This document shows, in pieces, positions 12,601 to 36,135 of a stretch of 36,166 nt of DNA. The DNA is from Folioceros fuciformis (taxonomy: Eukaryota). The position numbers and the translations under genes were made by a program. Each line of letters opens with the position of its first letter. Position 1 is the stretch's first letter. A model generated the notes under the pieces. The model had not been told where the DNA came from and searched no databases. It worked only from the letters and a program-made list of their open reading frames with translations. The stretch spans positions 34,281-70,446 of the forward strand of contig JBNGIO010006079.1 in the NCBI GenBank assembly GCA_049999805.1, given 5' to 3'.

Positions 12601-13377
12601 CCCTCCCAGCCTCCGCCCTGGGCAACCCGTGCCCCGCCTCCAGCAGCTCACTACTCTCCACCGCCGGAGACGGCGGCAACAACGACACCCTCTCATCTTG
12701 CAAGAAGCTCTTGGGATTAAACCGCTGCTTCCTGCACGCACCAGAATCGCCTCCGGTCACAACCATACTACACCACAGTACATCATTCCCCCCGCCGTCC
12801 CGCCCAGTACCTGGGCAGCGGCAGCAGCGGGGGCCCCAAACCCACCAATCGCGCAAATCCCTGCCTCCCGCCCCTCCGCCGGAAGCAAACCGCGACCCCC
12901 CTCCTCCCCGCTCCCCCCGCCGCCGCNNNNNNNNNNNNNNNNNNNNNNNNNNNNNNNNNNNNNNNNNNNNNNNNNNNNNNNNNNNNNNNNNNNNNNNNNN
13001 NNNNNNNNNNNNNNNNNNNNNNNNNNNNNNNNNNNNNNNNNNNNNNNNNNNNNNNNNNNNNNNNNNNNNNNNNNNNNNNNNNNNNNNNNNNNNNNNNNNN
13101 NNNNNNNNNNNNNNNNNNNNNNNNNNNNNNNNNNNNNNNNNNNNNNNNNNNNNNNNNNNNNNNNNNNNNNNNNNNNNNNNNNNNNNNNNNNNNNNNNNNN
13201 NNNNNNNNNNNNNNNNNNNNNNNNNNNNNNNNNNNNNNNNNNNNNNNNNNNNNNNNNNNNNNNNNNNNNNNNNNNNNNNNNNNNNNNNNNNNNNNNNNNN
13301 NNNNNNNNNNNNNNNNNNNNNNNNNNCCCACCCACCTGCTCCCTGCTCCAATGCGCGCACCCCAACAGCAGCACCAT
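9695..13377 (-). CDS. IREG3: Ferroportin-family (SLC40) transporter, plastid/mitochondrial IREG3/MAR1/FPN3 type; 5' coding region interrupted by assembly gap, start codon uncertain
   Basis: Motifs [83 protein letters not shown] and [21 protein letters not shown]. Candidate ATG in ggccATGG context at 13377, beyond the gap. Confidence 0.93.
12927..13326. other. Assembly gap (400 N) inside the first IREG3 coding region
   Basis: Run of N flanked by very C-rich (+ strand) sequence. Confidence 0.99.
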
Positions 13378-14463: not shown

Positions 14464-16030
14464 TCAGTGAACCGGCAAGCCGTGCTTTACCAATGTTTCT
14501 GCAATGGCAGATCGTGCTCGCTCGCTCAAGACATCAGGATTGGTGTCGCGGATGGGAGGGTGTATGACGACTTTCACAAGGCCTGGTCGGAGTGTATATT
14601 CCATCTTGTTGGGCATCAGTTTCCCTGTACCTATTAGACTAATTGGGACCACCGGGGCCTTAGCTTTGGCTGCCACGCTGAATGCTCCTTTCTGCAACAC
14701 GGGATGAGTACGTCAGGCCATACTAGAGAGCCGTTCGGAACCCAACGTGACCAAGCACTAGTTGAAAAGCACGGCAGCTGTACCTTGAACTGCGCCATGG
14801 CTCCGTCTGAGGAGCGGGTTCCCTCTGGAAAGAAAATGACCGAAACGCCTCTCTTCACCAGCTCCACACAATGCTTCAGGCATTGCTGCAAAAACGACGG
14901 ATTCAGCACAGGTGTCACGCGGGAAAAATGTTCTTCCGAGCAGGGCGTGGGCGTGGGCGCGCCAAACCATCAATCAAAGCTAGAGACGGAGCAAGCAACT
15001 CACGATCTGGCTCTTGGGGTCTTCTCGCTTGAGGGGTACGTGGCCAGTCAGGTACATTGCCCATCCGATGATTGGAATGAGGAAGTTGCTCGTCTTGCTG
15101 ATGAACTTGAAAGACCGGCCCAGCTGAAACAGCGTGAAGATGTCCAAAAAGCTCTGGTGGTTGGCCACGTAAACAGCTCCCTCGTCTTCGGCTGGCAAGT
15201 TTTCCCAGCCACAGATCTCTGTCTTGTAAAAGGGAAATGTCGTCATTTGAGCCCAAACCTTATTGACCAGGTGATGTGCCTTCCGCCTTGCTTTGTCAAA
15301 GAGCATCACAAAGGGGTGTAAGACGAGCATCACAACCACCAAGGGAGCAGCAATTGCAAAAGTCGTTGTGTAGAAACATATAGCCCGCACCTTCTGCCAC
15401 ACAGATGCATCTGCAAACCAGCATCCACTGCCAGCATCTGAGAACAATGAAAGCCCTAACAGCTTCAAGAAAGGTCAAAATTTCCATCATTCACTTCCTT
15501 CCACTACCAGAAGGACCAAACCTCACCTTTACTCGCGGGCACAGTAAAATCCCATCCTCCACCCTGCACTGTTGCACCTGCAACCTTGCATCTAATCACC
15601 GCCCTCCCCTTCCCCCTGTCGTAGGCCTCGGCACGCTTGGCCGTCAAAAAAGCACCTTCCTCCTTGCCAAAAAAGCCAGAACCCAGGACAGCGACGCAAG
15701 CGCCGCCACCTCCGCTCCATCTCGCGCTACTCTTCCTCACTGCACAAGAGATGCAGACAAATTTTCAAAAAAAAACATCCAAATTCCTCACAACAGACTC
15801 CACATTCCACAACAACACACAGCGTGATCAGAACCTCTACTTTCTAACCTACATTTCAACACGCCAGCTCTGCCAACCCCATCCTCAGCCCCGCCGCTCC
15901 TCTTGCAGCACAGCACGCGAGGCGGAGGCAGATTCCTCCTCCCGCCCCCCCGGCTCCCATCTCCCGCCACCAGCACCGCGCCTTGCAGAAGCCGCTGCTG
16001 CGGCCTCGCTACCGCATCGCAGACCTCCAT
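14464..16030 (-). CDS. LPAT1: Plastid 1-acyl-sn-glycerol-3-phosphate acyltransferase (LPAAT, PlsC family)
   Basis: Acyltransferase motifs VYVANHQSFLDIF, FKFISK, PIIGWAM, FFPEGTRS and KGAFSVA. The N-terminal exons are Gly/Arg-rich and transit-peptide-like; the ATG at 16030 is inferred. Confidence 0.93.
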
Positions 16031-17905: not shown

Positions 17906-20900
17906 TCAATGTGGCCACACTTTTGAGCCTCTGATTCCTCGCTTCCATTCCCCTAAACTCTGGAAATCATCTTTGTCGATCCAGTTGAACTCCATCTGGA
18001 TTGTGTAAAATCAGCCATGCCTGAAACCCACTCACAGAAAACATTGTAGACAGGGAAGGCATTCTGAATGATGACAATACAGTACCTGGCCGACGATCAC
18101 AGTGTCACCTTCCTGAACTCCCTGTTCCCTGAGTGCTTTGCTCACTCCGCTGGCATTCAAAACATGCTGAAACCTTCTCACCGCTTCGAAGTACCTGAAA
18201 TGCATCGTTCTCAATGAAGGGTGACTGGTGGAAGAAGATTCCACATGGATGAACGCAAACGAGTATGAAGCTTGAGAACTTACTCCCAATTTGTCATTTG
18301 GGTGAACCGCTTGAGTCCTGCTCCATCTATATACCATGTGCGCGTGTGTTTGTCACATGTTATCTTGAAGTCCTCTATAGGGGCACTCCGCTTCTGTTTC
18401 ACAATCTCACCGACGGAAGGGCATTTCACTTCCACATCTGCCACAGTTTTCACAAGACCATAGGGAAATCAAGACCAATGCTTACAGGAACAGGAACTTC
18501 CGGTCTAACATGTAGTGAAATGGACTTGCCTGCATCTGCTTCCACAGGCTGTGAATTCTTCTTCAGGAGCTCATAAACTGCATCAACAACCTCCTTGGTG
18601 CCCTGCTGGGTGGCTGCGCTCATGCACAAGGGCTCAACACCCTTGGATCTCAGAATTCTCTGAAAATTTTCCCATCGGTCGGCAGCCTCAGGGACATCCA
18701 TCTTGTTGTAAGCCACCAGGAAAGGCTTGTGCTGAAGCTCGGGGTTGAAAAGCTGCAGCTCCAAGCGAACTGCTTCATACTCGTACTCTGCTTGCTGACT
18801 CATCCCATCTACCACATGAATCTACAAACATTTTCAAACACATCCGCTGTCACCGCAAAGTGACTTGCAAGCTCGCATTGGCGGCATCAAGCTGCACACA
18901 CTCAACAATCGCGACCACAATAATGAAGATAGGGGCAGCCAAACAGAAGCAGGAGATACGGAAAGGAACAGGGAGGGATCATGATAAGGCTTACAAGGAC
19001 CCGACACCTTTCCGTGTGCCTCAAAAATTCATGGCCAAGTCCATATCCAGTATGTGCTCCCTCAAGCAAACCAGGTAGATCAGCCACCACCATAGATGCA
19101 TCAAACCCCAAAGCCACCACCCCCAAATTTGGTAAAAGAGTAGTGAAGGGGTAGTTAGCGATCTCTGGTCGAGCTGCACTGATGGAACTCAGCAGCGTGC
19201 TCTTCCCGGCGTTTGGCACCCCTATGATACCAACGTCTGCCACAAGCTTTAGCTCCAGCGCTACCCACCTGAAAGTTGACAGTGCAGAGCTAGAGGTGAG
19301 CCTCAAAGACCAGAGAAAGAGGTCCACGGTTTTTCACGCCCCATAACGAACATCTAGGTGACAATGCAGCAGGAAGCAGGTATCTTAAGACAGACATTTC
19401 TGCTCCTTCTTCGCCATTTTCAGCAATTTGTGGAGCTTTGTTGCGACCTGACTTGAAGGCCCCATTTCCCCGCCCACCCCGACCACCAGGCAAAAGCAAC
19501 TCTCGTTGTCCAGGCCTTGACAGGTCCAATAGAATATCCCCATTGCCTTCGGAATCCTTGACAAGAGTTCCCACAGGCACCTTCACAATGCAATGCTCAC
19601 CCGTAGCCCCTGTCTTGCCCTTCCCCTGCCCATGGCTACCTCTTGTGGCTCTGAAATGTACAGTTCTTCTGAATGGCAAAAGCGAATTCACACCGGGGTC
19701 TGCTTCAATGTACACGTCACCTCCATCTCCACCATTACCCCCCGAAGGACCTCCAAACGGCACAAACTTCTCCCTTCTGAAGGCCACAACCCCATCACCT
19801 CCATCTCCAGCTTTCGCATAAATTTTGGCTCTGTCGAAACATCTCATCACAGCTGGAATACCTCTCTTACCCTTATCTAGGTCGTCCACATCTTCATCCT
19901 CTTCAACCTCACGCGGTGCTGCACTAATTCGTCGCTTCTCTGGATGGAAGCTCATGGCTTTTGTCTGCATGTGTTCTGAGAAGTCTTCCGAACTGCCACC
20001 ATCCTCAGAATCCTCCATATCAAATCGAGAAACTGCTTCATTAGAGGGGGCAACGGGACCGGTGTCCCTCTCCTTACCCCTCCTCCTCACAATCCCTTGA
20101 TCTTTGTCCCACTTGTACACCTCAAGAAATTTTGAGGGAGAAGACTCTGTTGGTCTATCTTGGTCTTCCTCGCCATTATCAGGTAGAGAAGCTGACGGTC
20201 CAGTGCCACTGCTACTACTTTCACTCCCTTGACTTTTTTCTTTTGCTATTTGTTCCTCCATCTTACCAACAAGCTCTTTGAGCCTGGCTAACTCCTTCTC
20301 CATTTCAGTAACGTTCCCTTTACCGCCGGCCTCCTGTCCCTGCAACCTCGGAGTTGACAAAGCTGATGCCCCCCTAACAGAGTAAGAAACTTGACTGCAC
20401 CAGGTGTGACACGTACCTGGGATTGCGTAGAAGGAGAAGCAGCGGCTGATGATGAACGTCGTTCTTTCTCTGCTCGTTCTCTTTCCAGCTCGGCAATCTC
20501 CTGCTCTGCTTCCAACAATAAAGCGGCTTCTTCTTCAGCAGTCATGGGTCCTAAATCCCCTTCCCACACTTCAACAAGCTCCAGATCCTCATCACCCTCG
20601 GCCAGCCTCCTATCCCATTCCTCGTCATCTATTTCCACCCACTCTTCCTTCTCATCTTCACCCACCTCACCTTCCTTCGCACCTGGCTCTTCACCATCCA
20701 CTCCAGTATCTTCAACATCCTGATCCTGGAGACGCACGTGCTCACGAGACCGTTCCCGTTCCATAGACACTCTCACCTTGCCAGAGCCTGAATCTGTTTC
20801 AGCGTCAGGACGATTCGATTTTTTCCATCCACCTGAATTCCTAGCATACCATGATGCCAATGGCAAATTCTCCTCTTCCCTCGGCTGCAATGCAGTGATT

Positions 20901-21232: not shown

Positions 21233-21431
21233 CGCAACACTTCAGCCGACACACATGACTGAGTCTGGGAACCTGCGAAGAGCCAGAGTCCTGTCGAACC
21301 TGGACTAGGGTTTAGCTTGCTCTTGTCCCGGGGTTTAAGCTGGTTTTGGGTCGCTGACCTCCGGCTAAAAGGTCTTGCCATCGTTGATTGTGGGAGGAGG
21401 AAGGTGTTGATATCCAAGCTACGTATGCAGC
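21233..21431. promoter_or_regulatory. Putative bidirectional promoter between OBGC and SSSCA1 start codons
   Basis: Head-to-head ATGs about 200 bp apart; contains a telo-box-like ctagggttt (~21305) and a second gggttt. Confidence 0.6.
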
Positions 21432-22642
21432 ATGGCATCTGAGCAAAATGAGGTGGGCATGGTGGACGCAAGCATGGAGGAACAAGAGGCGGCGATGGCC
21501 GAGCGGCTCCAGAAATCAGCAGATTGCAGCGCGGCTTTAGCTGAGAAGCTGCTGCAGGGCTGGACACTGATGGGTGTGCATTGCCCCGAGTGCATCACGC
21601 CTCTGATGCGGAACAGGTGAAATTCTCTTCCGGACTGTTTAGCAGTGAAGTGGCAGAGAGCGGCATGATCAACTGGAACTTGTGCTTGATTTGGAACTCT
21701 GGTTCGTGTCATCCTGTTACAGGCAGAGGCAGCTATATTGTGTGTCTTGCGTTCAGTGGGTGTTGACAGAGGAAGAGGCCGCACTCAGAACGGGGAGAAA
21801 CCATGAAGGACGCAGCCATCATTTTGACAACCCTCACATTGCCCGATCTCTAACCAACACGGCTGTCCCTGCGGTCCAGGATGAGGTGCAGAATGTTGGG
21901 ACCAATGATAACGAGGGGGCTGAAGAGGCCTATGCAATGGCTGCAGCTATGAACGAGAGGCTACAGGCCTCCAGGAATGGACACCGATCCTCCGACGCCC
22001 TTGCTCCCGCACTGCAATATGAGGTACGCAACGGTGGAGGTAGCAACCCAGCAGCTTATGATCAGGTGTCAGCGGAGTCACTTACTTCTACTCGTTCTGG
22101 CCCACGACCTACCACCCATGGCAAGCTGCCGTCTCTGGTCCTTCCCAAGGTATGACCCCAAATGATTTGATCGTAAGCTTTGTGAAAGCAGTGGCCAATC
22201 TTGTGACTTCAACTGCATGCCCCAGGTAACTGTGCCTCCGAAGCCAGAAATTGTACAAACCCAGACTGTTAAGACACTCTTCCTGAAGATGGAGGTAAGT
22301 GGGTACCATGCGTTCGTTGATTTCTTCCACAAGCCACCGATGGAACCACCACCCTGAGTATCATTGGCATTGTAACGCAGGAAATACGAAGCCAGATTGC
22401 CATAACCCAGGATGTAGAGGAATTGAAGCAGGTGCGTACTGCGTACTTGGGCTTGGGTATTTGAGCTGAAACCCTGGCAGCTCCCGTGTGCCTTCTGAGA
22501 CTCCATTTTCTTGTTACAGCTCTTCGAGGTCCTTTCTGCTTGCGTGGACACCATCAATGTCGTCAACAGCGTCTCAAGTGAGGGAACAGCGTTTGTAAAA
22601 CCCTGGAAGGCTACCACTTGGAAGGACAATGAGGGGCAGTGA
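21432..22642 (+). CDS. SSSCA1: SSSCA1/ZNRD2 (Auto_anti-p27 zinc-ribbon) protein, 5 exons
   Basis: LAEKLLQGWTLMGVHCPECITPLMRNR|QRQLYCVSC zinc ribbon; C-terminal helical exons TVKTLFLKME|EIRSQIAITQDVEELKQ|LFEVLSACVDTI...EGQ*. The exact start ATG is uncertain. Confidence 0.88.
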
Positions 22643-22899
22643 AGCAGCCGCAGCCGCAGCCGCGAGCATGTTTTAGACTAGTTGTTTTAGAAGCATCGAG
22701 CCACAGACCAGGATTAACACGACAAGGCAAGCTCACTTCCAGCAGTTTTAGTCATCTTCCGTTCCAACCTAACGGCGGCCGTTATGCCGTCCTCTACCAC
22801 CCGGCATACGCGCACCTTGCGGTTGCATGGCAGGGCATCGCCAGGATCGAATCAGCACAAATTACTTGCATCGTCTGTGGCCCAGACACATCGAACAAG

Positions 22900-25800
22900 A
22901 TGGCCAGGGGGATCATTCTTGGCATGATCGTTCTGACGTTGGCAGTTCGCCATGTGATCTGTATTGAAGTTATGAGGCAGTACCTCGTCACCAGCAGTTC
23001 GATCCTCGATTGTAAGCAGTATGCCGGTATATCGGCTGGCCTCAGTTGCAATACTTCGCTAGCGTGGACGTTCGGCCTTGCGTCCGATGAGGTACGAGGG
23101 TGTACATCCTGATCGTAGGTTTTTGAGGAGTATGCTTCTGAGCGCTGTGTGATTCTTGCTTTTTGAGCAGACCCAACAAGGGACATCCTATGCGGTAACG
23201 TTGGACGAAGCAGTTGTGCTAAGCACTATGCTGACAGTGAAATTGAAGTACCCTATCACCGTTACCTTTCAACTTGGGCCAACTGTCTTCACTCTCCCTG
23301 CAACTTTCGTGGCTGTGAGTAACCCTGGTATGATGGATGGAAGGATGCATATGGCGTGGTATGGCATCCAGTCCTCCTCACTCCAGTTGGAACGTGAACT
23401 AGGAACATAATGCACAGCCCTACGAAGAGTCCATCAAACGATCTCCTTGCGTTGCTTACGCTGGTTCCGGCACATCGGCCACTTGTGGATGGTAATGCTG
23501 GCCGACGCTTCAGGTTGGGCCCTATTTCATGCAAACTCGACTTGCGGCAGGTGGTCCTAATCTGAAGATCTGCTTACAGGGCAAAGGATGCTGCCGGAAA
23601 TAACATACCCAACAGTGAGGTCAGCACATCAGAACCGTTTGCGAATCACACCTCGATTTCTTGCTGCACCCTGCAAAATTCGTCGTAGCCTGATGCTCTC
23701 TGCCTGTGTTATAACAACGCAGGGTTTCTGTTGCTCCAACTGTGCCACAAGCTCAACCACCCGGGGTTCGCAATGCACTCCATCAGGTGACTATGTGCAC
23801 TGCCTCCCAGTCCTTCAGCTGCCAAACCATGAGCAAGTGTTTTTAAGGTCGCTGACAGGCGCTCAGTCACGTGAAAATGAACAGATTCTTCTCCTGTAGC
23901 CTACTGTCTGCGAATGAGCGCAAACTGGTGAGTGAGTGCCATTTGCTTGGCTTGGGATCCGTCCATCCATGTCCAATTTGACCTTCTTTTGGGCTTTCGG
24001 GATACATTCAGGTTTCAAACTTACTCTCTGGGCAAATACTCAGCGTCCTTGCAGTTTGCCACCGTCGGTATGAGGCGTACCATCAGTAGTGGGACCAAGG
24101 TGCGGTGGATAACACTTGTGCCGCGTTTCAAGAAGCATAGATGAGGCTGCCCGTGCTTCCTTTGTAATCTACGCATGCCTGCCGGTTTTGCAGCCCAGCT
24201 CCTGGACTTTAACGGTTTCAGGGTCTTCTCATGTAGCCGTCGACAGCGCCGGCCAGTGGAAAGTTTCAGTTGGTGAAGGCATTTCCTCCACCTTGGATAC
24301 CGTCCAAAACTTGTATCTGTCCATTCCCATGTCCCCGGTAAGATTTACGTTCTTCCTTGCCTTGCCGCAGTTCCTTGCATTCCTGCCATAGCAGTACAAG
24401 AAACGCTGTGATGTGGACGTCTGTTGCGCTGTTGTCCGAAATCAGCCTCCTTATATGGTGCAAGATACTTCTAGCTGGCTGGCCGTTCCCTCTTCGTTGT
24501 ATGGAAGCAACGACTCCTGCAACTTGGTGGGTTCGTCGTACGCTGGGTATGTCGCCAATCCGAACAAGTGCTCAGCACCTCTCGGTGACTGCACAAACAA
24601 CCAACTAAGTAGTTATGTCCAGGTAACTCTTTGCTGCTGTGGGCTCATCGGATCTTGGCAATTCCATTCACCAACTGCACCCTTTGTCATTCTAAACGTT
24701 TTGTGCAGCAAAACGCTGTTGCACAACGTGTCGGTTCTCCGGGACCTTTCTCAGCAACCGCAGCCTTTGGAGCCTTCCAAGTAAGTTCCAGAAGTCGACG
24801 TGACTTTGAACAGCAAAGGAGGGCTTGTTCTCAAGGTCGTCTAATCACCTGTCAGGCGAACATGACGGATGACCGTAGCACACTTCACTCCATTTCGGTG
24901 CCGCAAAGTACTCAAGTGTCCTCCTACATCAGCTTTTCCGTAATTTTGGTAGCCGACAATATTGAATTTCTCCCAAAAGCGTAAGCATCCTCCCATAGCT
25001 TGCCTTCCTTGTATTTCGAACCACCTTGATTGCATGGCTGACTCTTGTACATTTTTGTGACATGATCAGTTACACCGGATCGATCCTTGATCTCAGAGCT
25101 CTCGGATACAATTCCAGTGACATTTCCACCAGAATCGTGGCCGTCACCGTGGAAAACACAGGAAATAATTCTACCAATTACACTCTCACCGTAAGTAGCC
25201 CGCAGGAAGGCAAGGACGTTGTTCAGGGCTTTTGGCAGTGGCTGATTAGCTTGTTTGTGCATATTTTCATAGGCCAGCTCCAGTGCACGAGTGGAATCGT
25301 TCCTTCTCAGGTGACTAAACCTCAACCTCACCATCACCTCACCTCATGTCACCTCCCACGACACGGAAGTATGATGCTCATTCTTGTCACCCGCTTGTGA
25401 GCTCTCACTTCAGTCTGTCACCTTTATAAATCTGCCGCCGAACACTCCGAAAGGCGTCAACTTCACACTCCATTTCGACACCGACGTGGGCCCGGCCTTC
25501 AACTGCTCAGGTATGCATCCTGTTCTTGACCAATGTCTAGCTCCGTCATACAACAGAGATCCTCATGGTTTTGCGGTGCATGCAGCATATCTGTTTGACA
25601 TCCAAAGCCACCTCCAAGACTGGCAGACAGTGACGGCGTATCCAGACGGAGTGACAAAGTCGGTAAGCTCTCTAGCCACCCAGGCAACGACCCCTTCCCT
25701 GCACACACACGTACACAGCCACACGTACTGACCCTGGCTTGCTGAGCAGGTCACTGAGAAGTTCCCCCCGATACAGATTTCCTCCCTCCCGAGATGGATG

Positions 25801-26842
25801 CAGTATCCTGTCCAGTTCCTGGCCATCCAGCTCAAAAACTGCAGGCAACCAGCGCACATCTCCCTCCCTGCTCTTGCACTTGCGTCCTTCCACTTCCATT
25901 TTCACTTCTTGTGGATCCCATTTACTGACCGGATGGCTGGGACTGCACTTCAGTGGAGGCTGCGCCAACTCCACTGCCGTCAACTGCCAGACTTTCCACA
26001 CGTGCTGGTCGGCCGTGATGACCATGGTGGGAGCACTGGCCTTGGCGATCGTGAGTAAGTTCATCATTCGCAACCAGGATCGGGGCCTCCAGAACGTGTT
26101 GTCGTGAATCTGATTTCGTTCCGTTTCCGCAGTAATGCTGACGCTGATGGCCCTGATTCGGCACGGGAGGCTGGGGTTTTTCCTGTCTCAGTGCGCGCTG
26201 TTGATGTGCTTGCCCTGCTGGCTGGGGTTCAAGCACAGTGGGAAGCTCGCGGATCTTCTCCTGTTCAAAGCCCTACGGGGCCGCGTCTCTCCAGCAGCTC
26301 CAGCTGCCAAGGTCTGGAAGCCATTGCTAGACCCTGGGAGGGAGGCGGCAGTGGAGGACGACGAGGAAGACGGTATGCGGTCGGACGATGAGCAGGATCA
26401 CAGGGCCGGGCCGGGCGACCAAGGGGACCAGGAAGGTGCGCTCGGGACCGGTCTCGGACACCGGGCCTCGCTTCTGGCGCCGCCCCCGCCGGGAACGCCC
26501 TTGCCTGGAAAGGGGAAAGTGCCCTTCATCCCTCCGCGACCAGTGGTCCCCGACCAGCCTCCGCTGCTCTCATCGCCTAACCCTTTGCCCAAGAAGGCAG
26601 CAGCCCTGCCTCGAGCAGTGGTCGCCGACCGTCCCCCTACAGGTACTCCCTGGCTGAACAGGTTGAAGAAGGCCTTCAAGAGGCCACCCCCAATAGTCCC
26701 CGACCTCCCCCACCCGGTTGCCGGTCGGACTGTACGTCCGGTGGGCTGGGGTACGTGGCCCGTACCTGCTGGCCGGGGACCAAGACTGGTGCGCTTCGAG
26801 GCGCCTTTCGATGGACCCAACATCTCTCCCAATCTCTCCTGA
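22900..26842 (+). CDS. HAP2: Divergent HAP2/GCS1 (class II fusexin, gamete fusogen) homolog, ~18 exons
   Basis: Phase-consistent exons give, in order: signal peptide; SSSILDC..LSC; NAQPYEE..C..TCGW..GNNIPNSEGFCC..TRG..SAYCLRMSANW; HAP2-GCS1 domain WLAVP..SCNLVGSSYAGYVANPNKCSAPLGDCTNNQL; ADNIEF; domain III VTVENTG..NYTLT; stem C-x3-C-x7-C-x5-C; TM helix; cytosolic tail. Confidence 0.88.
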
Positions 26843-27573
26843 ACGGGCAACCTGCAGATCATCGCCATGGAGACGAGCTTCATCGGGTCTCGGACGACAT
26901 CAGGACTGACAATCCAAGACGGACGTAAGACAAAAGTATAAGAAGGACAAGAACCGTAACCGACGAGATAAATTTATTGCTTAGCTAAGCTGCCACGAGT
27001 CTCAGCATTGTAATATCAAGAATTGTCTACATGCCATTTGAGCTTATCACGACGTCGGTTTCATATGCATGCACAACCTGCAGTAGGTTTCCGATGAAGG
27101 CTACACGGCGTGCAACTACGACAAGGACCAATGACGGGGACCCGGGAAGTGGGAAACTTCGAAGTACCTGCTTAACAGCAGGTGATATTCATTTACTCCT
27201 GTGCGCCTTGGCCACCTGCATCCACAGAGCTTGCAGTACAGGCACCGGTGTTAGAGGAAGCGCAGCTGGGACTCTTCTATTCTCAGCAAATGAAACACAC
27301 TGAAGACGAGGACAACCAGGAAAAGGAGCTATATTCCCCTCCGCTTTAGTTGTACAGGCAAAAACTTTGGCCTCCTCAACAAACTTATATACTGAATGGG
27401 GAATAAGGTCAAATCGGAAAACCATTGTATTATCCACATCACAGAGTAGCTCGGTCCATACACCACTCCACAAATCAGCTCTCCTTACGCGCTCCCGCCC
27501 AAAGAGCCATTTTTGGGAGTAGGTATTGCGCTGATACGTGTATCCAAGTAGACGAATTCACAGACGAGGTGAA

Positions 27574-30500
27574 TCAGGAGAGGTCGAAAGAGCCTTGACC
27601 CTCCGAAATGGCATAGAGCAACCTTTCACGCATTACCTCCTGATATAACACACGAAGAAATCAGCTGAGTAGGAGGGCACAGCGCACTCCAGCACATTTG
27701 ACAGCTCTTTACGTCATTCGCTTGCAAAATTGAAAACCAAACACACGTAGATTATTTACTCACCTTGCTGGAATACGGTGGCAGCTTCAGATAATTAGCA
27801 CAGGTCATGACACTTGGGAGGTCACCATCTGCAAGAGTAGTTCCTTGACCTGACACGGGTCCAGGGGGTGTGCTCCCCAGAGCTGGGATTACTGTGCTTG
27901 CTCCTGTTGGATGCTGTCAAAAGCAACAAGCGTCACACAATAACACACTAAAGCATGCAGTTGCAACATCTACAACTATAATCCAGCGCTTCAGCTCACC
28001 TTTCTCACAATGGTGAGTTTTGGGCTTAAAGCCGACAAACCCCCAGGTGGAAGGCGTGGTGCTCCAGTCACAAATCGTAAGAACGATCGTTGCTCTTCAG
28101 CAGAGAATTCACCCATAATCTCCAGAAGCTGTTCACATCATCCAAACCAAGTAAATACGTTGTGTATAACCCAGTAAAACCATGCAATACACAAAACACA
28201 AATTACATTTCGAATTGGTGGGCTCGACGCAGTGTAACCATGGTCAAATTTAATGAGATCCGCCAGAGAATCAGGCTGCCAGGACCCACCATCAAAAATT
28301 TCACTCAAATATTTATGAGGTGCAAAAACAAACGGTTTTCAGACTTCCATCCCCCACTGAGGGGTCTCCCTGCCAAAAACTTACCATCCATAGTTCACAG
28401 CGACCACAGAGCAGAGAGTCAAGTTCATCCTCCGAAAATATTTGCAAAGATGACAGCTGGAAAACCTGAAAACCAGACAAGAATTATCAATACACAGAAT
28501 TGTAAGTAAGTAACAACATAAATATCAAAGCAGGGTAGAAGTCAAAGCCAACCTGATTGAATCCTGCGCGGAAAGCCTCCATCTGAGGGAGGATACCTGT
28601 CTTTACAGTTGCATCCACTACCAGTGATATATAGTCCTCTAGATTGCTCACGTCCACCTGCACCATCCATTGAAAGACCCATCCCCATCCATTAAGAATC
28701 CGATACCAAAAGTGACAAGTCACCGCCCTTGAGTGGAACAAAATGAACGGGTCCAAGAAACACGCTTACCAATATTTCACCTCCATTTGGTCTTAAAAGA
28801 TACTCAGGATACCCAGGAAGGGTGAAGTCAAGGCACAGGTCCTCAACCCTAGAACCGCGGAAACGCAGTTGAGAGACAGCGTACTTTTTCTCTCCAGGAG
28901 TGACTTCAAGATACTGTTTACGACGTACAAGAACTTGCATTTCTTGCAAGGTCTTCCCAAGCTCATAATCTATAGACTTAACATCGTACAAATCCAGATC
29001 CTGCAGGAAATCAACAAAATCAAAATGTCCAACTCTACAGGAGGAACCAACGGACGGCACTGAATTTTCACAGCAAATTCAAATCATGAAACCCCCGGTG
29101 CTCTGGCAACAGATTGCCAGGGGAGTGTTTACAGAGTGAACGAACACAATACCTGGCCCAGCACCAGCTTGTAGAATGCAGTGGAAAGAGGTAAGTCCAG
29201 GAGTCGCCCATCTTGGAGAGCCTTTGCCATAACACGACCAAGCAGGCGGAAATGCTCGACCACCTTAGCATACCTGGTGTTTGAGGTATCTGCGTTGGAG
29301 GGCCAAGGTCGTGGAAAAAGACCCTGCGACGCTTGGACGTAATCTCCTGCAATATTCGCAGGATCGCCTGTACCCCTGCTCCTGGCTGAAGGACTTTCCG
29401 CCCCGGGTTCCCCTTCAGCATCTTGCATCTCAACATCATCCTCACCACTACTCCCTATGTCAGTTCTCCAAAGATCCAAGCTCGCCTTTTGCAGCTCATG
29501 GCTCAGCAGGGTATAAAACTCCAGGGTCGGCCCAAGTCCAGTCCCAACCTCCCCAAAGTACTCCACTTCCAAAACAGCCTTGTTACCTGAGTACAACTCC
29601 ATAACCTTGGCAGCTGAATCGAGGATCCTATTCCTTGACACCCGTACCTTCTGCCGCTGGAGTCTCCCAACGCGTAACTCGCGATCAGTTGACACAGCTT
29701 GTCCATCAGCAGTTTGTTGCTGCTGTAAACGCTGAAGAGCTCTAGACAACCCGAAAGCAGTAGCATGAAAATACTGTCTTCTAGTCTCAAAAGGAAACAA
29801 AAAGGGGCACGCCTTTGTCAGCTGATGACACCATGACGGTAAACCTCCACTGCATAGCGCTAGTGCGTCCTGCATCTGCCGAGCTAGCTTTGGAGTGAGC
29901 TTACTGCTCAGAAATTCCTCTCGTGGAACAAGGGGTCCATAGCCCTTAATATCTTCAAATTTTGAAACTTTGCCTTCTGCAAAAGCATCAGCAGCTTGCT
30001 GTGCTCTCAACCTAGGAGCAATGCGATTCAGCCCTTCCAATACCCGAAGCAAAAGGAGGATGTTGTAAGTGGTATTTGACTTATCCAAGTCGCAGGGAAG
30101 TTCCCCTTGCAAGATACTATCCAACAAGGAGGCCTGCTGCCAAGAACCCTCAGTGCAACTGGAGCCAGCATTCACTGCTCTGCTTTGAGCATTCGCTTCC
30201 AACCTTTGAGAACCACTGCCAGATGACGATGCTGCAGGTTGATCTGTAGTGTTGTAGTCTGCTCGTTGGTATGTGATAGTGTATATTTCCTCCCAAAGTC
30301 TTTTACCGGCTCCTACTGCATCTGTCCCTGCATATCTCTCCTCGTCCTCATCATCAGCAACTATTTGTCGCTGAACCGCTTGAAAGATGGTCAGAGACCT
30401 GTTCAAAGGTTTCCCACCAAGCGAGAAAACCAACTTGGGCGGTAGATTGGCAGCAGTTAAAGAAGCCATTGGAGTTCTCCGATCACGCGTGACACCCCGT

Positions 30501-33500
30501 CCCCCACTGCCACCTACTGATGTGCCTCCTGCCATGGCAACAGCAGCAAAAGATAAAGAGCCCTTTGCCCACACAGAGGATCCTGTCCGCAAGCCACTGG
30601 TTTCAGCTCCTGCTCCTACAGCATTCGACCTACCTCCTAAGTTGACTCCAGATATGCCTGATGCAAATCCAGATGCCTGCAGTAGTGCCTCACTTCCAGA
30701 CACACTGGATGAAGCCAAATTCCCCACATCATTCCCATCCCCCAGCTGTACATCATGAACCCGCTCCCCAATGCAGACAGGTGAAGGCTCCTCTCCAAAG
30801 ACCTGCATTCCATGGGTCAATTTCCATGAGCCACAATGATCACCAGCTCCAGGCCACAGCTAGCAATCATGAAGCTGTCAGCTAAAAGAAGGTTCACGAT
30901 GGGAGAAAAGAAACAGCCCAAAAACATATTGCCCACCTCTTCATCAGCCTGATCATCATCAAGTTCATCATCCTGTAAATGGCCAATGAGATGGGTTAGT
31001 CGAGAGTTTCTCTGTACCCCAAGGAAGATGAATTCACGTTCACAAGAAGTGCCCTACCTCTTCATGCTCTTCTTCATCTTCTTCATCCTCTGATATCTCA
31101 TCCTCTTCCATTGCAACAGCCTCCTCAAGCTCTGCTGGAGAAGCATCGACCTCTTCATCCTGTCATCACCATTGAGAATTGACCGAAGAAAGGTCAGGAA
31201 CACAGTTGAAGGAGGAATGCTGAACATCAACAAAACAGTTCTAAATTGCCAGAAAATTTTAACCACCCACCTCACTCTCCATTGAAGAGGTGCCTTCTGC
31301 TTGCTTCAGCAAAGAAGCTTCGGCAGCTGATGCTCTTCTCCGCGCGGCAGCATTCCTTGTTTCGGGGCCCCTATGCTCTTCTGGACTTACTGTCTCAACA
31401 GTATTCTTGGTGCCAACTTTCCCCTTTCCTTTCGACGAGGTTATACTTCCTGCAGCTTCTAGATTTCTTCTAGACCCAGCTGTTACTGATGCTGACGCTG
31501 AAGCAGGGCCTGATACAGATGCTGATGCAGATGCAGCTGCAGAGGCTACAACAGCTGCAGTTCTTGAGCGAGTTGATGGACGACGCTCGGGGATTAGAGG
31601 TGCCGTCGTGGAAGGGGTAGTACCGGGCGCTGAATCAGTCGCTGGCACTGCATCACCTCCCTCAACACTATTTGCAGCAGATGTAGATACAGCCTCATGC
31701 CTCTTCACCCTGGGCCAAAGGAAGTCTTCAACCGCAAAAAAGGTAGCCAGAGGTTCAATAAGAACAACATTAGAAGAGTAGTCCCGCAGAACTCTCTCCC
31801 CAGGTGCTCTACAGAGCCGCAGCTTAAAAGGCTGAGCTAGAGCACTTAACCCTGCAGCAATGCTAGCACCACTAGTAGTTGACCTGGGGGAATGACTAAT
31901 TACTACCGGGAATCGCTCCAAAGATGCTAGTGCATTTTGCAGCTTTTGCACCAGCATTGTCAAAGGAACTTCCTTTCCCTCATCTACCATAGGCAGCGCA
32001 AGCCCAATGAACTCCTTAAACCTCTTCAGCGCCTGTTGCCTCAGCCTAGCAGAATTTGGGTCAGTGATGTTCTCCTTGGAAAGATTCCCACAAGAGAAGA
32101 AATGTAAGAGGGAACCAACAACTCCACTTCCCACGAACTCAAAGGTTGAAACCCCATCCCCACCACCCAATTCCACCAGTATTTCTTGTATGAGCCCTAG
32201 GAGATGCTCGTCACTCAAAGAAGGTACCTGCGAAGCTTTTCCTTTCCCTTTCCCCTTGCCTTTAACCTCCACAATAGTGTCACCACTGAGCTTAGCAGAG
32301 AGCCCCTTCAGCTTGCACAGGCTTTCTGTCAACCCAGCATCGGTTAAACCAGAATCCCCCGAAAAGTACTGCTCCTTGAATCTCTTAGCACTGCTGATAT
32401 AAGCTGCCCGAAGCCCTGAACGTGTAGACCGGAGAGCTGGTTCCGAGCCTCCAGTAGGTGGTGACCCAACAGGTGCACTGCTAGACCCTCCAAGCTCGTC
32501 TGCTGGATCAGTTGGTGCAGCTCCTCGGCGCCTTCCAGGAGCTCCGCGGCGTGGCCTTGATGTGGCCACTGAGGAGGCACCCGATGCATCTGTTCCCCTG
32601 GCAGAAGCTGAGCTTTGTTGAGAAGCTCCCTGACTGTGCTCCGAGGCAATCAACAAATCAATTGCGTGGACAACACCCTCTTTCACAAACACCTTTGTGA
32701 AGACGTCAGGCAGTTTCTGCATTAACATTTCTGCTATCTGCAAAGCTGTGATCAAAACTGAAGCATCTTTAGATGCCAGGACCCCAGACAAGAAGCTGCA
32801 TCACATCAAGCCAAGGTAAGCAGGATGTTACACTTCGAAGATGAAAGATTAGCTTCAAAGTTGTTAACTTCGTATGCATGCAAAGACAAAAGAGCTGCGT
32901 CTGATTCATACCTGGAGATATTTGACTCCTTCAACAACGTCCGCAACATGTCAGCCGTACTGAAGTGAAGAAGCTTGTTGATGGCAGCAAGGCACTTGTG
33001 ACGCACCGGTGGATTGACACTGGAACCGTAAACCTGGGTGACGAAACAACAGTCAGCAATTTTGCTCGACAAAAAAGTAATACGGACAAATCCCTACGTT
33101 TAAAGTCATACCTGAACAAGCACTGGGAATAGATCCGCCCCAAACTGCACCAATAGCTCAGGATGACAGCGCAGCAACTTCTCTCGAGGTGAGATCTCTG
33201 CCACTGTGACATCCCCTTCTTCTGTTTTTCCATGCTTTTTTCCACTCTTCCCGCCGTTTGAGGTTGATGCAGGGGTTGCCCCAGAAAGCCCAGGCATGGG
33301 TGGTAGGAGCTCATTGATAAGCGTCACAACCTCATAGAGCTGTGAAGCCGCATGGTCAGAGAAAAACAGATGCTGTGTCCAACATGTTTGCATGCTTCTA
33401 GCAGAAAGCAAGTCGCAAAATGTGCATTTCATAAAAGGGTATGACCACAGGAGAACTTCAGGTGGTAAGAACCTGTTCTGGTGGGCGGTTGACGGATGAG

Positions 33501-35504
33501 GGAGACACAGAGGTACTTGAGACAAGTCCAGATCCAGCTAGAATGTCCTTCAAGATTCTACTGATACGGAGATCAAGCAAGCTCTCAGCTGCTGCAGCAG
33601 ATCCAGAGGTGCATGTTGAAAGTAGCCGGATCAAACCCTGCAAGACCAGCCATACAGCGTCACCTTTAGACTCCCACCCCCGACTCATGGTCAACAGCAG
33701 TTAACATGCTGGTAACGTACTGTGTATGTTGCATTGCCCAACGATGCTTGCGGAATTAGACTCCCGCTGGAGCTCCCAACAGAGATCAAACGCGCAGTTT
33801 GTGCAATCAGTCCATGGGAGCAAAGTGTATCCAGCTTCTCAGGAGACGTTGCGAAAGCCTCTGCAATTCGTGTGAGGCACACCGAAGCTTGCTCGACAAC
33901 CTGCAAGAGAAGAACTTGCGATTAGTCACCAATGAAGGGTAAGGGTGGGGCGGCAACGGAATCAGGTTCCAAACAAGCCCACCTTTGAATCTTGATATTG
34001 CAAAAGGCTGGTTAATATGGGCACAGCCTCCATCACAAAGTCCGAAGCATCAGATGGCAACTGCCTGCATATATTGGCAGCAGTGGAAACTGCTACTCTC
34101 TACAGTACAAATCCACAAGTCAATACAGCAGCACGACTCCGGATTCCCTGAAGCAAGGGAACGTTTTCCTCCCAAGCAAAACAGCACAAAACACTCGCGT
34201 AAGTATCTTACTTGAACGCCAGTTGAAAAGAAGTCCAGATAAGAGAGCACTGCAATGAGAGCTCCAGCTCGAAGACAAGCTGTAGGATGCTCGTGAGAGA
34301 TCTTTTCTAGAGCTTGCAGAGACTGCAAAGAAGGACACCCACGAATCAATACTGCTGAATGAGCAGACATCTGACTCGGGAATACAGTGAATTAAGTTAT
34401 CAGCCTCAGCACAGGCAGGCCTAGCAAGAGGAAGCGCAAGGTGGGTACTCCAACAGAAACCTTTGCACACGACACACTGCATGAACCAAAGCACACGGCA
34501 GGCGCCTGGGCTATGGTGCACGAACATACCTGCTCTGCAAGATCAATGTACTCAATAGTCAGGAGACGTGCACAAAAGCATGGAACAGCCCCATAGTGCA
34601 CGACCGCTGCACATGAAGAGGGAAGCACATCGCATAGATGAGTCAAAGCCCTAGCGGCTAAGAGCATCATGTCAGGATTGTACTCGCAGTTCAGTAGCCC
34701 AACCAGCACCGGCACAAACGAGTCGACAGAAAAGCTGCTCAGGGACTCTTCTGTTCCAATGGAAAGCAATTCACAGAGCTGAGAAAGGGCATCCAATTGC
34801 CGGCCCTCTTCACCATCCGCCCGGAGGCCTGACAGAATTTTCTTCAGCCGACTATTCTGGTGAGACGAGGGGGTGGAGGAGGGCATGAGGTCATCCAAGC
34901 CCGCACCCAGTTTCCTGAGAAGACCATGCAGAGCACTGCTGGCGGACGCCAAATTCTGATGCAAAGTGCTGCCACCCTCCCCATCATGGTCGTCATCAGC
35001 AAAGCCCGCCACTGCTGCTGCAGCAGCCGCCCTGTCCCTGTCCCTGTCCCGGTCCCTATCCCTGTCCCGAGCTCGCTCCTTCTCCTTCTCAGCTTCCTTC
35101 TCCTTCCCCTTGTCCGTATCCCTATCTTTCTCGTTCTCCTTCTCGGCAGCGCGCTGCTCCTCTTCCCGCTCGTGGTCCCTCTTGGCGGCTCTCTCTAATT
35201 CCCTCTTAGCAGCCTTCTCCGATTCCCGCCTGCTGGCCTTGTCGCTCTCCCGCTTGGAGGCCAGGGCCAGGGCGTCGTAGGACGGGTCCATGGGCGTGGC
35301 CTCCAGAGATCTAGCAGCGGCAGCAGCGGCGGCAGCAGCAGCTATGGAAGTGCGAGTGGGCGGGCGAGGTCGAGGCGGAATCGGAGCAGAAGCTGCGGCG
35401 GCTGACGAGGATGCAGAGAGGCGGGCTCGCTTGGACCGGGATGGCCGAGCAGGGGATGGCCGATGCGACGTGGCCTCCGCCCGCTTGCGGCTGCGCGTTT
35501 CCAT
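27574..35504 (-). CDS. UPL3: HECT E3 ubiquitin ligase UPL3/KAKTUS type (ARM repeats + HECT)
   Basis: [11 protein letters not shown] start, [73 protein letters not shown]; last exon ...[12 protein letters not shown] (stop 27574-27576). Confidence 0.97.
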
Positions 35505-36135
35505 AAAAGGACTCCAATCCCCCGGGACCGGCCCCCTGCCCCGCCTAGGCCCGGGCCTGGGATGCAGATCTCACACGCAGTGTCCACAGCACAAGCCTCT
35601 TAGCCGCGCCCTCCTGCTTCGCTCCCATGAAGCCACGCCAGGCCCGGAATTGGGCCTGCCTCCAATCCTTCCCGTCCCGCCGGTGCCGCAGCACTCAGAT
35701 CCCCGATCAAACCCTGCACGCTCTGCAATCCGCGGCCACCATCGCACCAATTACTCCCAATCTCAGCCCGGGGCCCGATTCCCCCGCCTCCCAGCAAGAT
35801 TGTCCTCCGCTCCACAGCTGGACTCCAGTGGCGGTCGCCGGGCTACCGTGCTGCAGGGCTCAGGGCACAACACGCACCCATGCACCACCGGAGCAACACA
35901 AATGTACAGAGCGGGTTTGAGGGGAGCTTTATAGCCTGCACCTTCCCACCTCCATACTATATGGAGAGATGGCACCACATGACATGCCCTCTACCGAGAT
36001 CACCACACAAGTCTTTTTTTCACAATTTCCCACATTCTCTACAAGACTTGGTGCTACTTCCTCGGTATATCCTTCCCTCCTGCATGAGAAAAAAAAATAG
36101 CAACCAAAGCCTCCGACTTATGCAGCTCCTTCCTC

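What the first reader, a model, noticed from the sequence alone, without database searches (positions are those of the whole stretch)
23403..23927. HAP2/GCS1 homolog with its hydrophobic fusion loop deleted
Seen: exons 23403-23491, 23580-23619, 23723-23786 and 23900-23927 splice in phase to EHNAQPYEESIKRSPCVAYAGSGTSATCGWAKDAAGNNIPNSEGFCCSNCATSSTTRGSQCTPSAYCLRMSANW. The intervening 113-nt intron is too small to hide another exon. Known: in characterised HAP2s (Chlamydomonas, Arabidopsis, Trypanosoma) the segment between GFCC and AHCL carries amphipathic helices or loops with bulky hydrophobic residues that insert into the target membrane, anchored by a conserved Arg-Glu salt bridge. Here the Cys scaffold, the candidate Arg (TRG) and Glu (PYEE) remain, but that segment is short and has no aromatic or large aliphatic residue. 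Inference: this is a fusion-loop-less plant fusexin. It could be a non-inserting or bilateral fusogen (reminiscent of EFF-1), a dominant-negative or heterotrimer partner, or a repurposed adhesion protein, probably a paralog alongside a canonical HAP2.
Basis: partly seen in the sequence, partly recalled or inferred. Interest (0 to 1): 0.9.

Follow-up and report, generated by a model that had tools for sequence, protein, structure and literature searches.

The report
Divergent plant HAP2 lacking hydrophobic tip
A land-plant gene for the sperm-egg fusion protein HAP2 keeps the protein's disulfide skeleton but has lost the greasy loop that normally inserts into the egg membrane, so it is either an unusual kind of fusion protein or a copy drifting away from that job.

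Summary
The window holds an 18-exon HAP2/GCS1 gene (22900-26842, + strand; PF10699 E 3.3e-10). They move the fourth exon's start from 23900 to 23885, which adds five residues to the loop.

Tip anatomy:
- All nine invariant tip residues (7 Cys, Glu, Arg) and 18 of 18 conserved cysteines are kept.
- The c-d connection is the shortest of 27 HAP2s compared. It is the only one without any F/W/L/I/M; the others have 4-11.
- Each shortening alone has precedent: loop 1 is absent in flowering plants, and loop 2 is short in many protists (PMC6089408). I found no case of both together leaving a polar tip.

Divergence: the protein sits on a very long branch (5.53 vs median 0.81). Its UPL3 neighbour is an ordinary bryophyte-grade land-plant gene.

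The same run shows an intron-2 read-through and a frameshifting donor, so productive mRNA is unproven.

Open points: paralogue status and the fold could not be tested, because no genome is held and a spliced protein cannot be folded here. The scan earlier noted loop-less HAP2 relatives in bacteria on other DNA.

The parts
22900..26842 (+). HAP2/GCS1-family gene, coding span of an 18-exon, 806-codon in-frame model (signal peptide, ectodomain, one TM at about aa 553-577, Cys-rich then Pro/basic tail)
   Evidence: Model built by coordinates. An HMM from 22 other HAP2s aligns aa 15-596 at 242 bits, E 2.3e-75. Hydropathy.
22900..23091 (+). exon 1 (start codon, signal peptide, first conserved Cys pair)
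   Evidence: Donor joint 23091>23171. No upstream in-frame ATG in ORF 22633-23112.
23171..23314 (+). exon 2
   Evidence: Acceptor joint. The donor is inferred from homology (the conserved block across the junction aligns without a gap). A 1710-nt contig runs unspliced through 23315-23402.
23403..23491 (+). exon 3: strand b with the invariant Glu (codon 23424-23426), first tip Cys (23448-23450), then Val-Ala-Tyr (23451-23459)
   Evidence: Donor joint 23491>23580. Alignment.
23580..23619 (+). exon 4 (b-c connection)
   Evidence: Both borders are covered by joints.
23723..23786 (+). exon 5: G-F-C-C motif, fifth Cys, six-residue polar loop 1 (23744-23761), invariant Arg (23762-23764), sixth Cys (23774-23776), start of loop 2
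   Evidence: Both borders are covered by joints. Alignment.
   Evidence: Joints 23786>23885 and 23927>24012. This acceptor scores 5.6 bits better than 23900 against the HAP2 HMM.
24012..24099 (+). exon 7 (strand d onward)
   Evidence: Joints.
24194..24337 (+). exon 8
   Evidence: Joints.
24446..24622 (+). exon 9, the part that matches Pfam on its own
   Evidence: Joints 24337>24446 and 24622>24709. PF10699 39.6 bits, E 3.3e-10. PDB 5ow3_C E 0.0027 and 7s0k_A E 0.008.
24709..24980 (+). exons 10 (24709-24780) and 11 (24856-24980)
   Evidence: Joints.
25070..25194 (+). exon 12 with tandem donors. The HAP2 frame needs the donor after 25194 (GTAGCC). The listed joint uses 25190 (GTAAGT) and shifts the frame.
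   Evidence: Joint 25190>25273. It leads to a stop at codon 451.
25273..25662 (+). exons 13 (25273-25310), 14 (25414-25510) and 15 (25586-25662), domain III
   Evidence: Joints.
25750..25844 (+). exon 16, followed by a GC..AG intron (25845-25953)
   Evidence: Joint listed as 25841>25951 with 3 letters of slack. Frame checked.
25954..26054 (+). exon 17 (membrane-proximal Cys cluster, first half of the TM); donor inferred
   Evidence: The frame needs the donor after 26054. A 1266-nt contig runs unspliced over 26055-26132.
26133..26842 (+). exon 18 (rest of the TM, Cys-rich juxtamembrane motif, Pro/basic tail, stop at 26840-26842); acceptor inferred
   Evidence: 242-codon open frame 26114-26842. 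No Pfam match.

Best explanation
This is a genuine but highly derived member of the HAP2/GCS1 (fusexin) family in a bryophyte-grade land plant. It is a type-I membrane protein that keeps the disulfide-bonded class II scaffold and the Glu-Arg pair that braces the domain II tip.

The element that canonical HAP2s push into the target membrane is missing. Loop 1 is cut to six polar residues, as in flowering plants. Loop 2 is ten residues with no large hydrophobic side chain, where flowering plants carry the amphipathic helix alpha-F. Insertion through the c-d loops, the mechanism shown for Arabidopsis, Chlamydomonas, Trypanosoma and Cyanidioschyzon HAP2, is therefore unlikely for this protein. This step is inferred from sequence and from published mutants.

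My most likely reading is that this is a copy released from the fusogen's usual constraints. It would be an accessory or regulatory HAP2-like protein, or a copy now drifting toward loss, and not the plant's working sperm fusogen. The reasons are that the divergence is specific to this gene and that the spliced forms seen are mostly unproductive.

Shown: family membership, exon structure, tip composition, divergence. Inferred: loss of insertion ability, status as a copy, present function.
For: Family:
- PF10699 E 3.3e-10 with exon 9 alone.
- Arabidopsis and Cyanidioschyzon HAP2 structures are the only PDB hits (2 of 2).
- An HMM from 22 other HAP2s aligns aa 15-596 at E 2.3e-75.

Scaffold:
- 18 of 18 conserved Cys columns are kept.
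- Glu and Arg are in place.
- Signal peptide and TM are present.

Tip:
- The c-d connection counts 20 here against 25-41 in 26 others, by the same count.
- It has 0 F/W/L/I/M against 4-11 in the others. Several comparators are near-duplicates, giving about 21 distinct lineages.
- Spliced contigs exclude a hidden exon.

Functional analogy, from PMC6089408 sections 8 and 10, which I read:
- Deleting alpha-F, or changing I171/F172/I176 to Ala, abolishes Arabidopsis HAP2 function and liposome binding.
- Amphipathic helices were predicted for all plant and algal HAP2s in that paper's alignment.

Gene-specific divergence:
- Best identity to any of 35 HAP2s is 28%.
- The end branch is 5.53 against a median of 0.81, though the protein groups with Zygnematophyceae (SH-aLRT 99).
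- Only 33 of 63 conserved non-Cys columns are kept, the lowest of 24 rows; the next lowest is 0.69.
- The UPL3 neighbour has a normal branch, 0.18 against a median of 0.16.

Unproductive forms: a read-through of intron 2 and the frameshifting donor at 25190.
Against: - No genome is held, so a second, canonical HAP2 in this plant is not shown. This could be the only copy.
- An 806-codon frame that stays open over 18 exons, with every conserved cysteine kept after so much change, argues for continued selection and against simple decay.
- No land-plant HAP2 other than the Arabidopsis PDB chain could be brought into the comparison. Bryophyte HAP2s in general might therefore be closer to this form than I can see.
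- Small hydrophobic residues near the tip could make a minimal contact surface. These are Ile in the first part of the b-c connection, Val-Ala-Tyr right after the first tip Cys (where 21 of 23 others have Asp at the middle position), and Val and Tyr before the seventh Cys.
- Archaeal Fsx1 has a six-residue uncharged c-d loop that its fusion activity requires (PMC9259645, passages read).
- The RNA picture rests on Logan contigs of one run of unknown tissue. One joint was not listed, and contigs drop rare forms.
Confidence: 0.5

Rival explanations
1. It is the plant's sole, working sperm fusogen. It has evolved a new way to engage the egg membrane without large hydrophobic loops. Options are a small Ile/Val/Tyr patch summed over a trimer, a short uncharged loop as in archaeal Fsx1, action from both membranes as in EFF-1/AFF-1, or help from a partner protein. 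The long branch would then reflect the fast evolution typical of fertilisation proteins.
For: - Intact 806-codon frame, 18 of 18 conserved Cys, Glu-Arg pair, TM and Cys-rich tail.
- Expressed and mostly spliced at homology-predicted sites: 14 of the model's 17 introns are seen spliced, 13 exactly at the model's borders.
- HAP2 tips are known to be highly plastic (PMC6089408).
- Fsx1's six-residue uncharged loop is functional and that protein acts bilaterally (PMC9259645).
Against: - Every characterised HAP2 needs hydrophobic tip residues (PMC6089408 section 10; PMC9279424 discussion).
- 26 of 26 comparators have them.
- The listed exon 12 joint shifts the frame, and intron 2 is read through in a 1710-nt contig.
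- Divergence far exceeds that between Closterium and trypanosome or red-algal HAP2 (the scores come from different programs).
Confidence: 0.25
2. It is a gene in the course of being lost, a recent pseudogene. Constraint on the tip and on many conserved surface positions has gone. A lesion at the end of exon 12 now forces a frameshift unless a weak cryptic donor is used.
For: - The perfect donor GTAAGT after 25190 is the one seen used, and it gives a stop at codon 451. Only the poor GTAGCC donor 4 nt downstream keeps the frame.
- Intron 2 and the last intron are each read through in long contigs.
- Only 52% of conserved non-Cys columns are kept.
- The longest branch in the tree.
Against: With a branch of this length, an unconstrained sequence should have lost cysteines and gained stops. 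Instead all 18 conserved Cys and all other exon frames are intact, so any inactivation must be very recent. One joint was hidden, and Logan contigs drop minor isoforms, so an in-frame form may exist.
Confidence: 0.2
3. The short polar loop is an artefact of a wrong gene model or of assembly error.
For: A run of N lies elsewhere in the window.
Against: The spliced contigs join exon 4 to 5 and 5 to 6 directly, with no other letters and no indels against the window (tables 3-5). The HMM aligns through the region. The gap of N is about 10 kb away.
Confidence: 0.03

Closest known systems
Arabidopsis thaliana HAP2/GCS1 (PDB 5OW3; Fedry et al. 2018, PMC6089408)
   Same: Land-plant HAP2. Same nine invariant tip residues. 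Loop 1 is essentially absent, and exon 9 aligns to it. Introns lie between the segments coding strands b, c and d, as the paper reports for HAP2 genes.
   Different: Arabidopsis loop 2 carries the amphipathic helix alpha-F (I171, F172, M175, I176), which is essential in vivo and for liposome binding. Here loop 2 is ten residues with no large hydrophobic residue, resembling the non-functional alpha-F deletion mutant. Overall similarity is low: exon 9 scores only 21 bits.
Trypanosoma cruzi HAP2 (PDB 5OW4) and other short-loop HAP2s of protists and animals
   Same: Short c-d connection. Loop 2 is only a turn. The b-c connection is thought to lie level with the tip and to contribute to it (PMC6089408 section 8). 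Comparators P0019, P0022 (Malawimonas), P0035/36 and P0040 have loop 2 of 9-10 residues, as here.
   Different: T. cruzi still presents V129, L167, L168, I183 and F184. The short-loop comparators have 5-6 F/W/L/I/M in the connection; this protein has none.
Chlamydomonas reinhardtii HAP2 (PDB 5MF1, 6E18, 6DBS) and zygnematophyte HAP2 (Closterium P0002, Spirogloea P0013)
   Same: Nearest group in the tree is Zygnematophyceae (SH-aLRT 99). Variable region 1 has the same length as in Closterium and Spirogloea.
   Different: Those proteins have two long loops, a 40-residue connection with 10 large hydrophobics. Closterium scores 322-327 bits to Chlamydomonas, but this protein scores only 109-124 bits to Closterium (a different program).
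EFF-1/AFF-1 of nematodes and archaeal Fusexin1 (PMC9259645)
   Same: They show what this protein might work like. They are fusexins without a bulky hydrophobic insertion surface that act from both membranes. Fsx1 has a six-residue uncharged c-d loop that is needed for fusion.
   Different: No sequence relationship beyond the superfamily. Bilateral action is untested here. Fsx1 has an extra domain and a Ca-shaped loop. That EFF-1 lacks an insertion surface is taken from PMC6089408 (discussion).

Membership tests
HAP2/GCS1 (Pfam PF10699) | Match to the family profile above the curated cut-off | tested here: met
   ORF holding exon 9: 39.6 bits against a cut-off of 27.4, E 3.3e-10. My own HMM from 22 HAP2s scores 242 bits over aa 15-596.
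HAP2/GCS1 | [quoted passage not shown] | tested here: met
   All nine are aligned in MAFFT. 18 of 18 conserved Cys columns are kept over the whole ectodomain.
HAP2/GCS1 | Type-I topology: signal peptide, large ectodomain, single TM, cytoplasmic tail | tested here: met
   Hydropathy peaks at aa 1-25 and 552-590 of the in-frame model. This depends on two inferred splice sites at the 3' end.
HAP2/GCS1 | Hydrophobic or amphipathic fusion loop(s) at the domain II tip | tested here: not met
   0 F/W/L/I/M in the 21-residue c-d connection, against 4-11 in 26 of 26 others. Whether the b-c connection compensates is untested.
HAP2/GCS1 | Three-domain class II fold forming post-fusion trimers | not testable with these tools
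The fold is inferred only from full-length alignment and cysteines.
HAP2/GCS1 | Male-gamete (or one mating type) expression and requirement for gamete fusion | not tested
   One coded run of unknown tissue holds spliced and unspliced forms. No tissue information is available.
EFF-1/AFF-1-like bilateral fusexins (functional class) | No membrane-insertion surface, and a requirement on both fusing membranes | tested here: inconclusive
   The first half is compatible. The second half needs cell-fusion assays.

The most novel reading that the evidence does not exclude
A land plant's only gamete fusogen works without any large hydrophobic fusion loop. It would be a natural counterpart of the non-functional Arabidopsis alpha-F deletion that nevertheless supports fertilisation. 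It could do so through a minimal Val/Tyr/Ile patch relocated to the b-c connection, through action from both gametes as in EFF-1 and archaeal Fsx1, or through an egg-side partner.
Probability: 0.17. Interest if true: 0.85.

Novelty: new variant of a known kind. Interest (0 to 1): 0.58.

Why it matters
HAP2 is the only known gamete membrane fusogen of plants and many protists. The current model, built on four crystal structures and on mutants, is that it must insert hydrophobic tip loops into the partner membrane.

A naturally occurring plant HAP2 with an intact scaffold but a polar, minimal tip is a ready-made test of that model.
- If it is functional, it shows a new mode of engagement in the plant lineage.
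- If it is an accessory copy, it would be the first HAP2-like paralogue with a different job that I am aware of in land plants. My searches found no paper describing one.
- If it is decaying, it marks loss or replacement of a fertilisation gene in a bryophyte lineage.

Each outcome can be tested directly with standard assays.

Tried and rejected
- Whole-genome search for a second HAP2: no genome is held for this window.
- Word-index protein search with the exon 9 ORF against longer proteins: 44 candidates, none at E <= 0.001. No annotated copy of this protein, and no close relative, was found that way.
- phmmer of exon 9 against 1.84 billion representatives: 9 hits at E <= 0.001. Of these, 5 are LysM-repeat false positives and 4 are true HAP2s, none from a land plant.
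- Pfam scan of nine other exon-bearing ORFs: no HAP2 hit (one of them gave only a sub-threshold zf-RING match, E 0.14), because the exons are too short. The first attempt failed on a coordinate slip.
- PDB search with the ORF holding exon 5: only chance hits at E 0.39-0.99, none of them HAP2.
- Run search: no RNA holder listed. The one holder, X1, is labelled 'RNA? (a guess)'. I treat it as holding spliced molecules only because its contigs carry GT..AG joints.
- Earlier notes of this scan: none for this genome or for this sequence. The word search returned only bacterial, archaeal and Naegleria HAP2-like notes.
- Folding: not attempted.
- Considered and rejected:
  - A hidden micro-exon in the loop, because the spliced contigs join the exons directly.
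  - Horizontal origin, because the protein groups with streptophyte HAP2.
  - Generally fast evolution of the host, because the UPL3 branch is normal.
  - The second His-Cys-Leu motif seen when intron 5 is read through. It is a relic or chance, with no support as an exon; intron-5 retention scores 82.8 bits and truncates.
- Supplements of PMC6089408 (alignment table, intron figure) are closed and may list bryophyte sequences that bear on the comparison.
Full report
**What is in the sequence**

It holds short exons with GT/AG borders that join in phase. The window is eukaryotic and no whole genome is held for it.

A coded public run, X1, holds 0.92 of the sampled words of 22800-27000. Its label is only 'RNA? 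(a guess)'. When laid on the stretch, however, its contigs show 16 joints, of which 15 are listed. Fourteen are GT..AG. One reads GC..AG once its three letters of slack are used.

After the printed slack, the joints relevant to the finding are:
- 23491>23580
- 23619>23723
- 23786>23885
- 23927>24012

The fourth begins 15 nt further upstream than proposed, which adds five residues (Asp-Ser-Ser-Pro-Val) to the loop. The spliced contigs join exons 4-5 and 5-6 directly, so no hidden exon supplies extra residues. The run also holds unspliced contigs over the same introns, for example 23591-23750.

**The gene**

I combined the joints with frame and homology to build an 18-exon model, 22900-26842, of 806 codons. 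It has:
- a signal-peptide-like start;
- an ectodomain of about 530 residues;
- one hydrophobic span at about aa 553-577;
- a Cys-rich juxtamembrane motif and a Pro/basic tail.

Evidence that it is HAP2:
- The ORF holding exon 9 matches Pfam PF10699 on its own (39.6 bits, cut-off 27.4, E 3.3e-10).
- Its only PDB matches are Arabidopsis HAP2 (5ow3, E 0.0027) and Cyanidioschyzon HAP2 (7s0k, E 0.008), 2 of 2 hits.
- An HMM I built from 22 other HAP2 proteins aligns aa 15-596 of the model in one piece (242 bits, E 2.3e-75).

Against that HMM, the RNA-supported acceptors score better than the alternatives. Acceptor 23885 beats 23900 by 5.6 bits, and 24446 beats 24392 by 8.9 bits.

**Comparators**

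- phmmer with exon 9 against 1.84 billion representatives gave 9 hits at E <= 0.001. Four are HAP2 (the best is Closterium, 46 bits). Five are LysM-repeat false positives.
- A word-index search seeded with the Closterium protein gave 32 HAP2s from zygnematophytes, chlorophytes, Malawimonas, ciliates and unnamed environmental sources.
- The Arabidopsis, Chlamydomonas, T. cruzi and Cyanidioschyzon chains were seen only through PDB hits to Closterium. Of these only the Chlamydomonas and Arabidopsis alignments were printed.

**Anatomy of the tip**

Fedry et al. 2018 (PMC6089408, sections 6, 8, 10, 11 and the discussion read) define nine invariant residues of the b-c-d region: seven cysteines, a Glu in strand b, and an Arg in the c-d connection. 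They also define three variable regions:
- region 1, the start of the b-c connection;
- region 2, loop 1;
- region 3, loop 2.

In a MAFFT alignment of the model with 27 others, all nine invariant residues are in place.

| Segment | This protein | Comparators |
|---|---|---|
| Loop 1 (fifth Cys to Arg) | six polar residues (Ala, Thr and Ser only) | at least 9 in the 26 that cover the region |
| Loop 2 (sixth to seventh Cys) | ten residues | 9-10 in five (P0019, P0022, P0035, P0036, P0040) |
| Whole connection, same count | 20 | 25-41 |
| F/W/L/I/M in the connection | 0 | 4-11 |

The paper states that loop 1 is absent in flowering plants, and the Closterium-Arabidopsis alignment shows the corresponding gap. 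The five comparators with a short loop 2 all open with hydrophobic residues; this one does not.

Some comparators are near-duplicates (three Closterium, two pairs of unnamed proteins), so about 21 distinct lineages are represented.

Within the protein itself, the connection lies within the longest stretch without those residues.

One local oddity points the other way. [quoted passage not shown] At the middle position 21 of 23 others have Asp.

**Divergence**

- The model is at most 28% identical to any of the 35 HAP2 proteins in hand.
- In a tree of 24 rows (model cut to aa 1-552; 23 of the 35 HAP2s, leaving out fragments and near-duplicates) its end branch is 5.53 changes per column against a median of 0.81.
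- It still falls with Spirogloea and Closterium (SH-aLRT 99), as expected for vertical descent in a streptophyte. Such a long branch makes any placement unsure.
- It keeps 18 of 18 conserved cysteine columns but only 33 of 63 other columns conserved in at least 80% of the rest. That is the lowest of 24 rows; the next lowest is 0.69.

The host is not generally fast-evolving. The neighbouring UPL3/TRIP12-type HECT ligase is 72-76% identical to liverwort, moss and lycophyte orthologues and about 69% to angiosperms. In a tree of 27 rows (26 picked from the 120 listed) it has an ordinary branch, 0.18 against a median of 0.16. It lies outside the sampled liverwort and moss clades. I therefore call the host a bryophyte-grade land plant. 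A hornwort is my guess, from 50% G+C and introns of about 90 nt; that is recalled knowledge and was not tested.

**Transcript oddities**

Three features of the same run argue against a simple picture of a working gene.
1. A 1710-nt contig is spliced at intron 1 but runs unbroken through intron 2 (23315-23402). That brings an in-frame stop at codon 144.
2. Exon 12 has two donors 4 nt apart. Only the weak one (after 25194, GTAGCC) keeps the HAP2 frame into exon 13. The listed joint uses the perfect one (after 25190, GTAAGT), giving a stop at codon 451.
3. A 1266-nt contig runs unbroken across the last intron.

Only one joint was hidden. So at least two of the three productive events (removal of intron 2, the in-frame donor, removal of the last intron) were not seen at all.

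These are contigs of one run of unknown tissue, and contigs drop rare forms. This is therefore a warning, not proof of inactivity.

**Interpretation**

Published work shows the following:
- Arabidopsis HAP2 loses all function when alpha-F is deleted or its I171/F172/I176 are changed to Ala (PMC6089408 section 10).
- All three hydrophobic loops of Cyanidioschyzon HAP2 contribute to trimer formation (PMC9279424, passages read).
- T. cruzi HAP2, with short loops, still presents V129, L167, L168, I183 and F184 (PMC6089408 section 8).

Against that background, a c-d connection with no large hydrophobic residue is unlikely to insert in the canonical way. Adding the gene-specific acceleration, the intact cysteine scaffold and the unproductive splice forms, I rank the readings as follows:
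- A HAP2 copy released from the fusogen's usual constraints, with an accessory role or early decay (0.5).
- The plant's only fusogen, using a new and minimal mode of engagement (0.25).
- A recent pseudogene (0.2).
- An artefact of the gene model (0.03).

Archaeal Fsx1 is a useful parallel: it has a six-residue uncharged c-d loop that is required for fusion, and it acts from both membranes (PMC9259645, passages read).

**Novelty**

My searches of the held library found no description of a plant HAP2 without a hydrophobic tip, of a divergent HAP2 paralogue in land plants, or of hornwort HAP2. For most of the papers listed I saw only listings and abstracts.
- HAP2 / fusion loop / membrane insertion / gamete fusion.
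- GCS1 / HAP2 / hornwort / Anthoceros / bryophyte / spermatozoid.
- HAP2 / paralog / fusexin / land plants / phylogeny.
- Anthoceros with GCS1 or HAP2.

Earlier notes of this scan mention loop-less HAP2 relatives in Planctomycetota on other DNA. They are unchecked and concern a different lineage.

**What stays open**
- Whether a canonical HAP2 exists in the same genome.
- The three-dimensional shape of the tip.
- The tissue and isoform pattern.
- Any activity.

Noticed in passing
window 25845-25953: A GC..AG intron in the HAP2 gene, supported by a spliced contig. The joint is listed as 25841>25951 with three letters of slack.
   Followed up: partly
window 25188-25199 and 26048-26060: Two tandem donor pairs 4 nt apart (GTAA|GTAGCC and GTGA|GTAAGT). 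At the first pair the frame needs the weak downstream donor, and the RNA joint uses the strong upstream one. At the second pair the frame needs the strong downstream donor, and no joint was listed.
   Followed up: partly
window 23787-23884 (intron 5): Read through in the exon 5 frame, the intron encodes a second His-Cys-Leu motif a few codons after the donor. It resembles the strand-d motif that exon 6 provides. It may be a relic of an older exon border or chance.
   Followed up: no
window 21411-21617 (+) and upstream of 22800: An autoantigen-p27-type zinc-ribbon gene (PF06677, E 1e-11) lies just upstream. A 1710-nt contig of run X1 extends about 1.1 kb upstream of 22800 and continues into HAP2 exons 1-3, so read-through transcription from the neighbour is possible.
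   Followed up: no
window 27500-35600 (-): A UPL3/TRIP12-type HECT ubiquitin ligase (PF25579, PF00632), 72-76% identical to bryophyte and lycophyte orthologues. I used it to place the host.
   Followed up: yes
window 169-1266 (-), 9698-10285 (-), 14983-15474 (-), 18905-20534 (-): Parts of a KUP/HAK potassium transporter, a ferroportin-like protein, a PlsC-type acyltransferase and an Obg GTPase (Pfam). The locus is gene-dense with short introns.
   Followed up: partly
window about 12900-13200: A run of N (assembly gap), flanked by Pro-rich low-complexity open frames on both strands.
   Followed up: no
exon 9 (24446-24622) as a search query: phmmer with this 59-residue exon pulls bacterial LysM-repeat proteins as top hits (5 of 9). 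This is a false-positive trap for anyone searching with this exon.
   Followed up: yes
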